Shown here piece by piece: positions 5,152 through 63,102 of a stretch of DNA of 64,000 bases. The notes under the pieces are model-generated. The model was not told the origin of the DNA. It worked only from the letters and a program-made list of their open reading frames with translations, and did no database searches. Position 1 is the first letter of the stretch. The number at the start of each line of letters is the position of its first letter. Source of the stretch: Tubiluchus corallicola (Eukaryota > Animalia > Priapulida). The stretch covers positions 396,882 through 460,881 of the forward strand of contig JAQGDQ010000166.1 of the NCBI GenBank assembly GCA_030141605.1, written 5' to 3'. Position numbers and translations under genes: made by a program.

Positions 5152-5373
5152 GTTTGCTTAGAAATCATGAATATAACGATGTCATCTCCAAAGCTTATAG
5201 GCCGAGCACCCAGTAAGAAAAACATGGAGGTTTTGTCAATAATAAAACAAACGCTTGTTGCTGATGATAAAAACCCAATAATTCAGTATTTCGACATTGG
5301 ACGCCATGTTGCTAGTGCTGGACCTGAATTAGTTTGGAAAATTTACGAGGCACACAGGAAATCCGACTTGCAG
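5152..5373 (+). CDS. SCYL2: SCYL2-like coding exon 1 (ATG 5167 or 5224)
   Basis: ctcttttttacag acceptor; [53 protein letters not shown]|gtttgt donor, phase 0. Confidence 0.9.
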
Positions 5374-8300
5374 GTTTGTACAACAGTTCATAAATAAACC
5401 ACATAACAGACTTTTTATTGTGTAGATTATCTAAAGTTTTAATTAATACACCTAAAATGATGAGATTTGAGGTGAGGTGTATGACCCAGTGGTCACGGGT
5501 CATGTTGCCAATTGCTGGACCTGAACTGGTCTGCAAAGATTTGCAGGTTTGTACAACATTTCAAAAATAAACCATAAAACGGGTTTTTACTGTCCAGATT
5601 ATCAAAAATTTTAATGTAATTAAAATTATGAGATTTGAGGTGAGAATAACCGAATGGTTACGCCAATCTGCTGTGCGACTTTGCGCCTAAAAGTGGAATA
5701 TCGTAATTTCGTAAACTATAAAATTTTTACTTATACTGATTCGGGCAAGAGCAAATGATTGTTAATCCGACCAAACTGCGCATGCTCAGGAAACCAACAG
5801 AGCCATGCAGGTTTCACTTCACTGAAATGACATCACTTAAGCTTCCAAATGGGTACCATATTGGCGGTGTGCGGCAAAAATGGCGCAGGTAAAAATGGTA
5901 CAGGAAAAAATGACACAGTAAAACTGACACAGGAAAAAATGGCACTGGAAAAAATGACACGGTAAATATGGCACAGTAAAAATGAAATTTCACCTACTTT
6001 TCATTTGTGATATTTGCACCTGTGCCATTTTTACCTACTGTTCCATTTGTGCCATTCTTCCTGTGCCATTTTTACCTACTGTTCCGTTTGTGCCATTTTT
6101 CCTGTGCTATTTTTACCTGCTGTTCCATTTTGTGCCTTTTTCTGGTGCCATTTTTACCGTCTGTCATTTTTGTCGACAGTCCATATGGGCTTCATAATGA
6201 CTTCGCTGCATTATGCCAGTAAGACAGCTAAAAATAGCACGAATTTGTGATTGTGAATCCTGTTATGACCACTAAGTAGGTACAACATTAAGAAGTACTA
6301 ATCCTCATATTTCTGATATAACCTGACCAGAATTAGTAGCACGAAAGGCGATTAGTTGTCGATTTCGCTACGCGATGAATGGAACTTAATGCAAAACCGG
6401 ACCCAATCTGAAACTGCAAATAGTGAAAGAGAAACATACTATTTTTTCAAAAGTGATATACATGAAAGAATTCTTACCACACAAACACAATTTCATGTTC
6501 GTTCGCGCCACTACGTGCATTTTCATTCATTCGCTGTTGCATGCATTTCGCCATTCATTAGTTAGACGGATACAAACGCGCCTGCATTTCGGAAACAGGA
6601 TGCATAAAACAGGTGTTGTAGCTCTCAGTTCAGATGTGTTCGTTTGTGACGTACTGCACATGTTCGACAGCTAAATTTGAAATTTGAATTTTTATCTTAA
6701 AACTTGCCTAGTTATAGCGGTTGATGAAATTGTGTTTGTCATTCCCAGAAATTCTCCCTACAATTTTACTTTTTCTCAACAGGAAGCCTCAGTGTTCGTA
6801 TTTGAGAAACGAATAGCAGACAAGCTACACAAACCTAAACGTAGAGAAGTTGTGACTGACCTCCTGCGTCGTGGAGTACGTCAGTTAGAGAGAATGAAAC
6901 ATCCTAAAATCTTACAGTTACTGCATTCCGTTGAAGAATCGAAGCAAGTATTTCTTCATTTTTAAACATAGTTTTGTTTGTCTTGAATCAAACAGTTCAT
7001 TATAACTGATACAGAGATTCTCCCCAATATACAGTACAAAATTAACGTGCTAGATTTACATTTGAAGTTACCATGAAGTTATAATGAAGTTAGATTTGAA
7101 GTTTCCATGAAGTTACCACAAAGTTAGATTTGAAGTTACCACCCTCTACCATGGAGTTACATTTGAAGCTACCACCCTCTACCATGGAGTTACATTCGAA
7201 GTTACCACCCTCTACTATGAAGTTACATTTAAAGATACCGTGAAGTTACCATGGAGTTACATTTGAAGCTACCACCCTCTACCATGGAGCTACATTCGAA
7301 GTTACCACCCTCTACCATGGAGTTACATTTGAAGTTACCACCCTCTACCATGGAGTTACATTTGAAGTTACCACCCTCTACCATGAAGTTACATTTGAAG
7401 TTACCACTCTCTACCATGAAGTTACATTTGAAGACACAGTGAAGTTACCATGGAGTTACATTTGAAGTTACCACCCTCTACCATGGAGTTACATTTGAAG
7501 TTACCACTCTCTACCATGAAGTTACATTTGAAGTTACCACCCTCTACCATGGAGTTACATTTGAAGTTACCACTCTCTACCATGAAGTTACATTTGAAGA
7601 TACCGCGAAGTTATCATGGAGTTATATTTGAAGTTTCCACCCTCTACCATGGAGTTACATTTGAAGTTACCACCCTCTACCATGGAGTTACATTTGAAGT
7701 TACCAATCTCTACCATGAAGTTACATTTGAAGATACCGCGAAGTTATCATGGAGTTATATTTAAAGTTTCCACTCTCTACCATGGAGTTACATTTGAAGT
7801 TTCCACCCTCTACCATGGAGTTACATTTGAAGTTACCACCCTCTACCATGGAGTTACATTTGAAGTTACCAATCTCTACCATGAAGTTACATTTGAAGTT
7901 ACCACCCTCTACCATGGAGTTACATTTGAAGTTACCACTCTCTACCATGAAGTTACATTTGAAGATACCGCGAAGTTATCATGGAGTTATATTTGAAGTT
8001 TCCACCCTCTACCATGGAGTTACATTTGAAGTTACCACCCTCTACCATGGAGTTACATTTGAAGTTACCAATCTCTACCATGGAGTTATATTTGAAGTTT
8101 CCACCCTCTACCATGGAGTTACATTTGAAGTTACCACTCTCTACCATGGATTAGTAGGCCTATAGTACCATACTATTGAAAATAACAAAACAAGACTGCA
8201 CAATGCAGATGAGGTCATAATATAGTACGTGCAGCATATACAATATGAAAAAATTAATAGTTAAAAAATAAACCATTGTCTCAGAACTTTAATTAAGGCT

Positions 8301-62200: not shown

Positions 62201-63102
62201 TAACAATCAATTACCCGTGAGTTGTGATAACAATCAATTACCTGTGAGCTGTGATAACAATTAATTACCTGTGAGTTGTGATAACAATTAATTACCTGCG
62301 AGTTGTGATAACAATCAAATACCTTTGCCTGTGAGTTGTGATAACAATCAATTACCTATGAGTTGTGATAACAATCAATTACCTGTGAGTTGTGATAACA
62401 ATCAAATGCCTTTACCTGTGAGTTGTGATAACAATCAATTACCTGTGAGATGTGATAACAATCAATTACCTGTGAGCTGTGATAACAATCAATTACCTGT
62501 GAGCTGTGATAACAATCAATTATCTGTGAGTTGCGATAACAATCAAATGCCTTTACCTGTGAGTTGTGATAACAATCAATTACCTGTGAGTTGTGATAAC
62601 AATCAATTAAATGTGACCTGTGATAACAATCAATTAAATGTGAGATGTGATAACAATCAATTACCTGCGAGTTGTGATTTGCATCTGCTGCATCGTCATT
62701 CTGACTTTCCTGTGAACGATTCCACACCATCTCTGCCCTCTCAGCGTTTCCTACTGAATCATCCCAAACAACGGGAACAGACTGCGACTGGGATTGATTA
62801 GCCACTAAAAATAACGAGCAGTTATTTGAGATGTTATATGGATTTTGATTTAATAAAAAAATCATCATGCAAACCTCAGATGAATGTCTAGAACAATGAA
62901 TCTAAATCTATAGAAGCAAAGAAAAGTGGATAAATTAGCAATAGCTGCTGTTTAAGAAACGTCATTTAACGACACACTTTTCTTAGACGAATGCCGCTGT
63001 CTAGAAGACGGTCGACTGGCCTGCGTCGCGCCAGCTGAACTGGTTGGCGTGCTTCTAGATGTCAGCTTCATGGTTTTTTTAGCTCTTTTCTTAGTACTGC
63101 TC
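53162..63102 (-). CDS. TOPBP1: DNA topoisomerase 2-binding protein 1, 3' part (AAD, BRCT7, BRCT8, NLS); 5' exons lie beyond the window
   Basis: Ten in-phase exons giving [12 protein letters not shown] (AAD tryptophan motif), [105 protein letters not shown] and a basic tail; matches TOPBP1 C-terminal architecture. Confidence 0.93.
54220..54384 (-). repeat. 33-bp x5 minisatellite made of the TOPBP1 exon end plus donor
   Basis: Unit on -: GATTATCTAGTGCAGAATACTGC|GTAAGTACCT. Confidence 0.96.
54362..54480 (-). CDS. TOPBP1: TOPBP1 penultimate exon (BRCT8 end)
   Basis: [41 protein letters not shown]|gtaagt. Confidence 0.9.
54765..55458. mobile_element. Tc1/pogo-like MITE
   Basis: ta-cagtaagtcctcgcttaa ... 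ttaagcgaggacttgccg TIRs. Confidence 0.75.
55491..55623 (-). CDS. TOPBP1: TOPBP1 BRCT8 exon
   Basis: [44 protein letters not shown]|gtatta. Confidence 0.92.
56553..56657 (-). CDS. TOPBP1: TOPBP1 BRCT7-8 linker exon
   Basis: [36 protein letters not shown]|gtaagt. Confidence 0.92.
56927..57071 (-). CDS. TOPBP1: TOPBP1 BRCT7 exon
   Basis: [50 protein letters not shown]|gtacgg. Confidence 0.92.
57150..58190. repeat. 31-bp minisatellite (gagatcgagactgacctatcgagaccccgct)
   Basis: Directly visible. Confidence 0.96.
58503..58596 (-). CDS. TOPBP1: TOPBP1 BRCT7 exon
   Basis: [32 protein letters not shown]|gtataa. Confidence 0.92.
59927..60027 (-). CDS. TOPBP1: TOPBP1 exon, start of BRCT7
   Basis: [34 protein letters not shown]|gttcgt. 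Confidence 0.88.
61481..61589 (-). CDS. TOPBP1: TOPBP1 exon
   Basis: [37 protein letters not shown]|gtatta. Confidence 0.85.
62166..62678 (-). repeat. 27/33-bp, about 18-copy minisatellite made of the TOPBP1 exon end plus donor
   Basis: Unit on -: ATCACAACTCACAG|GTAATTGATTGTT; four units carry a 6-nt GTAAAG-like addition. Confidence 0.96.
62665..62804 (-). CDS. TOPBP1: TOPBP1 ATR-activation-domain exon
   Basis: atttttag|TG then [46 protein letters not shown]|gtaatt. Confidence 0.85.
62978..63102 (-). CDS. TOPBP1: TOPBP1 Ser/Arg-rich exon preceding the AAD core
   Basis: tttaaag|G then [42 protein letters not shown]|gtgtgt; phase fits next exon; donor is weak. Confidence 0.7.

What the first reader, a model, noticed from the sequence alone, without database searches (positions are those of the whole stretch)
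5305..62678. Recurrent splice-donor ladders: four independent tandem amplifications of exon-end plus 5' splice site in two neighbouring genes
Seen: at 30334-31224 (SCYL2, 27x33 bp), 62166-62678 (TOPBP1, about 18x27/33 bp), 54220-54384 (TOPBP1, 5x33 bp) and 5305-5662 (SCYL2, one degenerate copy) the repeat unit straddles a real exon/intron junction, so each copy recreates the donor in its exonic context. The units share no sequence, so the events are independent. That is 4 of roughly 28 donors, and I found no equivalent at any acceptor. All three arrays have periods divisible by 3. Known: single donor-spanning VNTRs exist (the human CBS 31-bp VNTR), and tandem duplication of AG|GT sequence is a classical intron-gain model. 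Inference: this density suggests either a lineage-wide mutational process tolerated at donors, or a VNTR-encoded splicing rheostat that tunes peptide insert length, stop inclusion and localisation. Caveat: several ordinary minisatellites here also have 3n periods (21, 33, 54, 84), so the 3n pattern alone is weak evidence.
Basis: partly seen in the sequence, partly recalled or inferred. Interest (0 to 1): 0.85.

Follow-up and report, generated by a model that had tools for sequence, protein, structure and literature searches.

The report
Splice-donor "mirage" minisatellites in two genes
In two neighbouring genes of an invertebrate (likely a priapulid worm), four exon ends are copied, splice signal included, 2 to 27 times into the next intron; this kind of repeat is already known from lancelets and human F7, and the cell likely still uses the first signal, so the copies are likely harmless.

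Summary
Observation confirmed. Exon maps of a SCYL2-like gene and TOPBP1 give 26 donors and 28 acceptors; 4 donors and 0 acceptors have nearby copies (27x33, 18x27/33, 5x33 nt, one decayed duplicate). The units are unrelated. Short-read contigs reproduce arrays A and C. The donor excess is suggestive only: P 0.001-0.07 depending on the repeats counted, Fisher 0.047, in a window picked for the feature. The rheostat is not supported. The fourth duplicate is not 3n and reads into a stop. Array C reads into a stop at once. Copies 2-3 of array B have lost GT. Array A shows no significant selection on its frame. One RNA-type contig joins array C's first donor to the next exon, but its source is about 6% diverged and may lack the array; arrays A and B have no RNA test. 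Contigs of a second sample hint at a much shorter array A. This is the published lancelet 'mirage' / human F7-CBS class, and this scan has noted it in at least 11 other genomes, some denser. What stays open is whether such arrays arise preferentially at donors.

The parts
5152..42402 (+). SCYL2-like (SCY1-like pseudokinase) gene, 19 coding exons, 764-aa open frame; ATG at 5167
   Evidence: 72% identity of exon 1 to Priapulus caudatus SCY1-like protein 2; tblastn; spliced model open end to end and 60.7% identical to P0001 over 697 columns
5152..5373 (+). SCYL2 first coding exon; real donor 5373|5374
5295..5645 (+). Feature D: decayed two-copy duplication of exon end + donor + about 110 nt of intron; pseudo-donor 5546|5547, 173 nt downstream (frameshift; stop after 7 codons of read-through)
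   Evidence: 130 of 152 aligned letters identical; self-blast 82%
30238..30360 (+). SCYL2 exon 12; real donor 30360|30361 is the first unit of array A
   Evidence: needed for the open frame of the model
30334..31224 (+). Array A: 27 x 33 nt (27 exon + 6 intron nt), 26 pseudo-donors all with GT, read-through open ([11 protein letters not shown] per unit)
   Evidence: short-read contigs of run X1 reproduce its units and its 3' junction
53162..62804 (-). TOPBP1 3' part, 9 exons (62804-62665, 61589-61481, 60027-59927, 58596-58503, 57071-56927, 56657-56553, 55623-55491, 54480-54362, 53231-stop at 53162)
   Evidence: homologs with TopBP1_BRCT0 and BRCT domains; spliced model open
62166..62678 (-). 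Array B: 18 units of 27 nt, four lengthened to 33 (14 exon + 13 intron nt); real donor 62665|62664; copies 2, 3, 6 lack GT; in-frame TAG in copy 12
54212..54384 (-). Array C: 5 x 33 nt (23 exon + 10 intron nt); real donor 54362|54361 (phase 2); TAA at 54360-54358 right after it; copies 3 and 4 have AT for GT; 8-nt direct repeat at both ends
   Evidence: X1 contigs 54120-54325 (0 differences) and 54343-54807 (1); X6 contig joins 54362 to the last exon
53162..53231 (-). TOPBP1 last coding exon, 22-residue basic tail ending [14 protein letters not shown], lost if a later donor of array C were used
   Evidence: spliced to the first donor in X6 record 25

Best explanation
Four unrelated tandem duplications each copy an exon end with its donor into the next intron; they likely arose by ordinary replication slippage, likely persist because the spliceosome keeps using the first, genuine donor, and are therefore predicted to be near-neutral 'mirage' minisatellites. 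Shown: the anatomy, independence of the units, reality of arrays A and C in short-read contigs, and one spliced contig at the first donor of C. Inferred: (1) Birth by slippage, then gain and loss of units; an 8-nt direct repeat bounds C and a 3-nt one bounds B, and the window holds 34 minisatellite loci, so this genome makes such arrays freely. (2) Survival filter: when a duplication crosses a donor, the copy still joined to the exon is the most upstream one, which is the one chosen first, so the mRNA is unchanged. When it crosses an acceptor, the correct copy is the last one, and first-AG choice would tend to put repeats into the mRNA, so such events are removed more often. (3) The later copies then drift; some lose GT. 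This filter explains a lack at acceptors, but not an excess at donors; the local excess (3-4 seen, 0.2-1.6 expected) is put down to chance in a window picked for it, or to the birth bias given as first rival.
For: Same anatomy as human F7 IVS7, where only the most upstream of identical donors is used and later ones work only when it is mutated; LMNB2 and PDGF likewise; 6-16 and CBS use two proximal extra sites (PMC1557585). Lancelet mirages in Adh3, globins, troponin C and PGBD5 are reported not to disturb splicing (PMC3087553, PMC3902484). X6 record 25 runs unbranched from 54420-54362 into 53230-53161 with one letter between, which is the first-donor junction. No sign of selection for use: D is out of frame, C reads into TAA, B has dead copies 2, 3, 6 and a TAG in copy 12; in A 7 of 17 distinct variants are synonymous (P 0.06-0.17), and no hit on GT is expected 35% of the time. 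A purely intronic 33-nt x 31 array (7056-8150) without a donor shows that the period needs no splice explanation. X3 contigs hint at a far shorter array A.
Against: The RNA evidence is one contig, from a run only guessed to be RNA, 6% diverged in coding sequence with an unalignable 3' part, so its genome may lack array C; contigs also drop rare forms. Arrays A and B, the two with open read-through, have no RNA test. Array A keeps GT in 27 of 27 copies and an open 297-codon frame, with a slight synonymous lean (7 of 17 against 3.8-4.7 expected). All three expanded arrays are 3n (Fisher 0.048 against 10 of 31), and B's length variants add 6 nt. Among arrays of 4 or more copies 3 of 11 cross a donor against 0.23-0.25 expected (P about 0.001), which tolerance alone does not explain. 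Leak to proximal copies is known in 6-16 and CBS.
Confidence: 0.65

Rival explanations
1. Donor-biased birth: minisatellites start or expand more often at exon ends than elsewhere, for instance because GC-richer exon DNA seeds them and only those crossing the donor survive, or because a transcription- or splicing-coupled lesion forms at 5' splice sites. The copies would still be silent; this differs from the best explanation in origin, not in function.
For: 3 of 11 arrays with 4 or more copies, and 3 of 21 with units up to 60 nt, cross a donor against 0.23-0.26 expected (P 0.001-0.002). Exon GC is 0.44 against 0.36 for the window. 5 of 25 other intronic arrays start within 150 nt of a donor (2.7 expected, P 0.13). 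The origin of mirages is called unclear in PMC3087553. Unchecked scan notes report dense donor cases elsewhere.
Against: With the 7 decayed tandem duplications counted on equal terms, 4 hits have P 0.05-0.07. The subsets were chosen after seeing the data and the window was chosen for this feature. Acceptor mirages exist in lancelet globin, and one unchecked scan note found donors hit as often as acceptors in another genome.
Confidence: 0.25
2. Splicing rheostat: later donors are used in regulated fashion, adding 11-residue units to SCYL2, 9-residue units to a TOPBP1 linker, or removing TOPBP1's basic C-terminal tail, with copy number tuning the output.
For: A is open through all 27 units with intact donors; B is open to copy 11; use of C's copy 2 would end the protein before the basic tail, with the stop 29 nt from the last junction, close enough to escape decay under the 50-nt rule (recalled, from vertebrates). 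Extra proximal donors are used in human 6-16 and CBS.
Against: D is not 3n; 3n is irrelevant in C because a stop comes first; B's nearest copies are dead; no significant synonymous excess in A; the only RNA-type contig uses donor 1. In F7 identical later donors stay silent.
Confidence: 0.07
3. Assembly artefact: the arrays are collapsed or expanded misassemblies.
Against: X1 contigs cover array C with 0-1 differences. For A, an exact 45-nt unit contig has depth 1010 against 145 for the flank, 7.0-fold, and the window's 27 copies predict 6.9-fold. Variant units are shared between copies in patterns.
Confidence: 0.02
4. Intron gain by tandem duplication of a proto-splice site: the arrays created these introns.
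For: B and D have AG before GT; the model is discussed for mirages in PMC3087553.
Against: Each intron continues in unique sequence with its own pyrimidine tract and AG (intron lengths 1725, 1075, 1130, 1409 nt). A and C lack AG before GT. The Priapulus protein model skips exactly exon 12, which suggests both flanking introns are older than array A (inference). The diverged X6 source splices at the same place as C.
Confidence: 0.01

Closest known systems
Lancelet 'mirage' minisatellites (Adh3, globins BflGb6/BflGb9, troponin C, PGBD5). Seen: PMC3087553 section 16 whole and passages; PMC3902484 one passage. Canestro et al. 2002 (PMC117041) not held, known only through these citing papers.
   Same: Invertebrate genes with head-to-tail copies of an exon-intron boundary; units of 10-160 nt; several loci per genome; many but not all copies keep the splice signal; copy number differs between haplotypes; normal splicing reported.
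   Different: Here an animal that is likely a priapulid; all four cases are donors, whereas lancelet mirages include acceptors; somatic instability and RT-PCR not tested here.
Human F7 intron 7 37-bp VNTR, with 6-16, CBS intron 13, LMNB2 and PDGF intron 4 (PMC1557585; seen: abstract, Introduction, Discussion whole, passages; the four other genes only as summarised there)
   Same: First unit spans the exon-intron boundary; identical pseudo-donors follow (4-8 in F7, 25 in 6-16, 15-20 units in CBS); array A's 26 copies match 6-16 in number. B's dead second and third copies recall the title of Yang et al. 2000 on CBS (reference title only).
   Different: Units here are mostly exonic (27 of 33, 23 of 33) against 4 of 37 in F7; four cases lie in two adjacent genes; donor use is measured in the human genes and almost untested here.
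Internal tandem repeats at exon-intron boundaries in human segmental duplications (PMC2812944; passages)
   Same: Variable tandem repeats on exon-intron boundaries.
   Different: There they make new introns and alternative transcripts in young paralogues; here the introns are older than the arrays and the genes appear single in this window.
Splicing-associated tandem repeats, spl-TRs (PMC10078293; passages)
   Same: What the rheostat reading would amount to: repeat length changing splicing.
   Different: Defined by length-splicing association in a population; no such data here.

Membership tests
Mirage / donor-spanning minisatellite | Head-to-tail copies of a unit of about 10-200 nt | tested here: met
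   D is a two-copy decayed case
Mirage / donor-spanning minisatellite | First unit spans an authentic exon-intron boundary | tested here: met
   open spliced models with homology; RNA-type contig at C's junction
Mirage / donor-spanning minisatellite | Later units repeat the splice signal inside the intron | tested here: met
   GT in 27 of 27, 14 of 18, 3 of 5 and 2 of 2 copies
Mirage / donor-spanning minisatellite | mRNA made mainly from the authentic site | tested here: inconclusive
Mirage / donor-spanning minisatellite | Copy number varies between alleles | tested here: inconclusive
   X1 fits about 27 units; X3 shows one unbroken 63-nt cycle at depth 20.3 against 6.3 for its flank, a hint of a short allele; contig depth is not a copy number
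Mirage / donor-spanning minisatellite | Somatic length instability (lancelet Adh3) | not testable with these tools
   needs single-molecule typing of tissues
Intron gain by tandem duplication of a proto-splice site | Intron consists of the duplicated sequence, with donor and acceptor both supplied by repeat copies | tested here: not met
   unique intron sequence and separate acceptors follow every array
Splicing-regulating VNTR (spl-TR; 6-16/CBS-type multiple donor use) | Later donors used, or splicing varies with repeat length | not testable with these tools
   no RNA run from an array-bearing animal was listed
Splicing-regulating VNTR (spl-TR; 6-16/CBS-type multiple donor use) | Selection keeps frame and donors in the copies | tested here: inconclusive
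   A: 7 synonymous of 17 variants, P 0.06-0.17; B, C and D lose donors or frame

The most novel reading that the evidence does not exclude
5' splice sites are birth or expansion hotspots for minisatellites in repeat-rich animal genomes, about ten-fold above random among expanded arrays, through a process tied to exon ends. That would give the unexplained lancelet 'mirages' a general cause across phyla and a steady supply of backup donors and in-frame peptide inserts for gene evolution.
Probability: 0.25. Interest if true: 0.55.

Novelty: new member of a known kind. Interest (0 to 1): 0.27.

Why it matters
As it stands it adds a likely priapulid example to a published class and gives a handy natural test set for first-donor choice: array A offers 26 later donors, most identical to the real one, all in frame. 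It also warns annotators that gene predictors can pick a wrong donor here. It would matter more if a genome-wide count showed a true excess at donors, since the origin of mirages is called unclear in PMC3087553, and I found no genome-wide donor-versus-acceptor count in searches (open-licence library only).

Tried and rejected
No whole genome is held, so the genome-wide test could not be run. Run search on 61300-63300: no RNA holder listed among 6 runs; this is no evidence on expression. Laying 30176-30470: X5 and X6 gave no cover and the exon itself had no cover in any of the 4 runs; no conclusion drawn from these blanks. Canestro et al. 2002 is not held. Literature searches found no genome-wide count; one search found nothing on priapulid repeats in the 15 listed of 1,548. 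No supplements were read; those of PMC3087553 and PMC2812944 may hold more cases. 3n bias as evidence for function rejected (D fails, C irrelevant, 10 of 31 background). Weak real donors needing backup rejected: scores 9.7, 9.8, 6.4, 8.8 within the 4.1-12.4 range of the 26 donors on a matrix trained on the other 22. Shared ancestry of the units rejected. A possible further TOPBP1 exon near 63770-63640 could not be fixed and was left out of the counts. Three dispersed (non-tandem) pairs of the 10 self-blast pairs were left out of the null. No structure was predicted.
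Full report
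Setting. The window is animal DNA of about 36% GC. The first coding exon of the plus-strand gene is 72% identical to Priapulus caudatus SCY1-like protein 2, the only hit among 2 candidates, so the animal is likely a priapulid (inference). The minus-strand gene matches proteins with TopBP1_BRCT0 and several BRCT domains. No whole genome is held, so all counts come from this window.

Gene models. Using tblastn and splice signals I built 19 coding exons for the SCYL2-like gene (764 aa, open end to end, 60.7% identical to P0001 over 697 columns) and 9 exons for the 3' part of TOPBP1 (earlier drafts). That gives 26 donors and 28 acceptors. One possible further TOPBP1 exon near 63700 was left out.

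A junction-centred 20-mer had a copy at 17/20 or better within 3 kb at 4 of 26 donors and 0 of 28 acceptors; the best value elsewhere was 16/20. A: 27 x 33 nt, 27 exonic + 6 intronic. B: 18 units of 27 nt, four lengthened to 33, 14 + 13. C: 5 x 33 nt, 23 + 10. D: one decayed copy, 130 of 152 aligned letters identical. The six pairs among A-D score no better than shuffles, so the events are independent.

The arrays are real. Contigs of run X1 cover 54120-54325 with 0 differences and 54343-54807 with 1, through array C. X1 differs from the window at full depth at four unique positions shown (53227, 55684, 57058, 57088), so it is probably another animal, though the tool warns that a best holder can be the source sample. 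For array A, 23 X1 contigs lay on the first four units; an exact 45-nt one has depth 1010 against 145 for the flank contig, and the window's 27 copies predict 6.9-fold for that stretch.

More than chance? I collapsed each array to one unit and placed units at random in the two genes. With 29 genic minisatellites, 0.74-0.80 donor hits are expected and P(3 or more) is 0.03-0.04. Adding D alone gives P(4 or more) about 0.01, but that is unfair, since D was found by other means. Adding all 7 decayed tandem duplications from a self-blast gives 1.5-1.6 expected and P 0.05-0.07 (first pass). Subsets chosen after seeing the data are stronger: 3 of 11 arrays with 4 or more copies, expected 0.23-0.25, P about 0.001; 3 of 21 with units up to 60 nt, P 0.002. 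Zero acceptors has P 0.16-0.44. Donors against acceptors: Fisher 0.047 for 4/26 vs 0/28, 0.105 for 3/26. The window was picked for this feature. So a donor excess is suggested, not shown, and an acceptor deficit is not shown.

The rheostat. The 3n pattern is weak: 10 of 31 non-donor minisatellites are 3n; 3 of 3 gives Fisher 0.048, 3 of 4 gives 0.13. D's second donor is 173 nt on, with a stop after 7 codons. In C the first donor is followed at once by TAA, so frame does not matter, and copies 3 and 4 have AT for GT. In B copies 2, 3 and 6 have lost GT and copy 12 carries TAG. Only A is fully open with 27 of 27 GT. Of its 17 distinct variants 7 are synonymous (expected fraction 0.22-0.28, P 0.06-0.17); no hit on GT has P 0.35; only 1-2% of possible changes make a stop, so an open frame is expected without selection. 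This neither shows nor excludes weak selection.

RNA. No listed holder was on record as RNA. Run X6, a guess at RNA with the same species label, has a 200-nt contig (record 25, depth 45.5) whose letters 142-200 lie on 54362-54420 and 71-140 on 53161-53230, one letter between (table 8; the joint is not among the rows shown in table 5). That is donor 1 of array C joined to the last exon, with a single unit. Against: the contig has 8 differences in 129 letters and its remaining 70 letters do not align, so its source is a diverged lineage that may lack the array; contigs drop rare forms. It confirms the junction more than it tests competition. X6 gave no cover at array A.

Length variation. In run X3 only 2 contigs lay on array A: one unbroken 63-nt cycle (a whole 33-nt unit at k=31) at depth 20.3 and the 3' flank at 6.3. 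The window's array would break that cycle into about ten pieces at 6- to 15-fold depth. This hints at an allele of a few units. It is one low-depth sample, a filter drops contigs, and depth is not copy number.

Mechanism. Best reading: slippage duplications (direct repeats of 8 nt at C and 3 nt at B, 1 nt at A; that they predate the event is inferred) in a genome rich in minisatellites (34 loci with period 10 or more in 64 kb), filtered by splicing. At a donor the correct copy is the first one, and F7 minigene work shows the most upstream of identical donors wins (PMC1557585; the paper notes that earlier two-site experiments gave opposite results). At an acceptor the correct copy is the last; scanning is described there as widely accepted for 3' sites, so short acceptor duplications would more often spoil the mRNA (my inference). 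This explains tolerance, not excess; the excess may be chance or biased birth.

What is known. Lancelet 'mirages' are tandem copies of exon-intron boundaries in Adh3, two globins, troponin C and PGBD5; they vary between haplotypes, include both 5' and 3' boundaries, reportedly leave splicing normal, and their origin is called unclear (PMC3087553; PMC3902484). Human F7, 6-16, CBS, LMNB2 and PDGF carry donor-spanning minisatellites. I found these papers before opening the scan's notes. The notes list 14 findings in at least 11 genomes, among them four of ten donors in one gene and three consecutive introns in another; none in this genome among the 8 shown of 15 and none near this place. They are unchecked and not used as support.

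Verdict. Real, correctly described, a new member of a known kind. The rheostat is unlikely (0.07). The one open point of value is whether donors are true birthplaces of such arrays (0.25), which a genome-wide count would settle. Interest 0.27.

Noticed in passing
window 37890-37982 and 39746-39817 (+): SCYL2 exons 17 and 18 are old duplicates of each other (both encode RHRHSMTD), 93 and 72 nt, both phase 2-2, so either or both keep the frame; the Priapulus model P0001 has the motif once. Could be tandem or mutually exclusive exons.
   Followed up: partly
window 6943|6944 (+): SCYL2 intron 2 needs a GC donor to keep the frame and the match to P0001 (GC-AG intron).
   Followed up: partly
window 30238-30360 (+): The Priapulus protein model P0001 lacks exactly this exon, the one followed by array A here; probably a gene-model gap.
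   Followed up: no
window 62570-62538, 62429-62397, 62342-62310, 62201-62169 (-): The 33-nt units of array B carry a 6-nt duplication of the donor core itself, intact in copy 18 and decayed in the others: a small ladder inside the ladder.
   Followed up: partly
window 7056-8150 (+): A 33-nt x 31 minisatellite begins 112 nt after a donor but holds no exon sequence; a natural control for array A.
   Followed up: yes
window 46813-47785: Intergenic 54-nt x 18 array with three long repeat-made open frames (324, 367, 319 aa); no sign sought that they are genes.
   Followed up: no
window 20896-21243 and 29675-30171: Degenerate TTAGGG-type tracts inside SCYL2 introns; the second ends about 65 nt before the exon of array A.
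   Followed up: no
window 22644-23009 and 23378-23745 (+): Two 92% identical direct copies of a dispersed element flank SCYL2 exon 9; related sequence also near 40300-40700 and 56100-56200.
   Followed up: no
window 53610-54177, 54746-55455, 55740-56449: Very high-copy dispersed repeats in TOPBP1 introns (summed contig depth up to thousands of times that of unique sequence in X1).
   Followed up: no
window 42777-43369, 44127-44924, 49655-49984: Short open frames that look like decayed LINE-type retrotransposon pieces (by eye; not tested).
   Followed up: no
window 53263-53373 and 57154-58190 (-): Two arrays end 31 and 82 nt before an acceptor without crossing it.
   Followed up: partly
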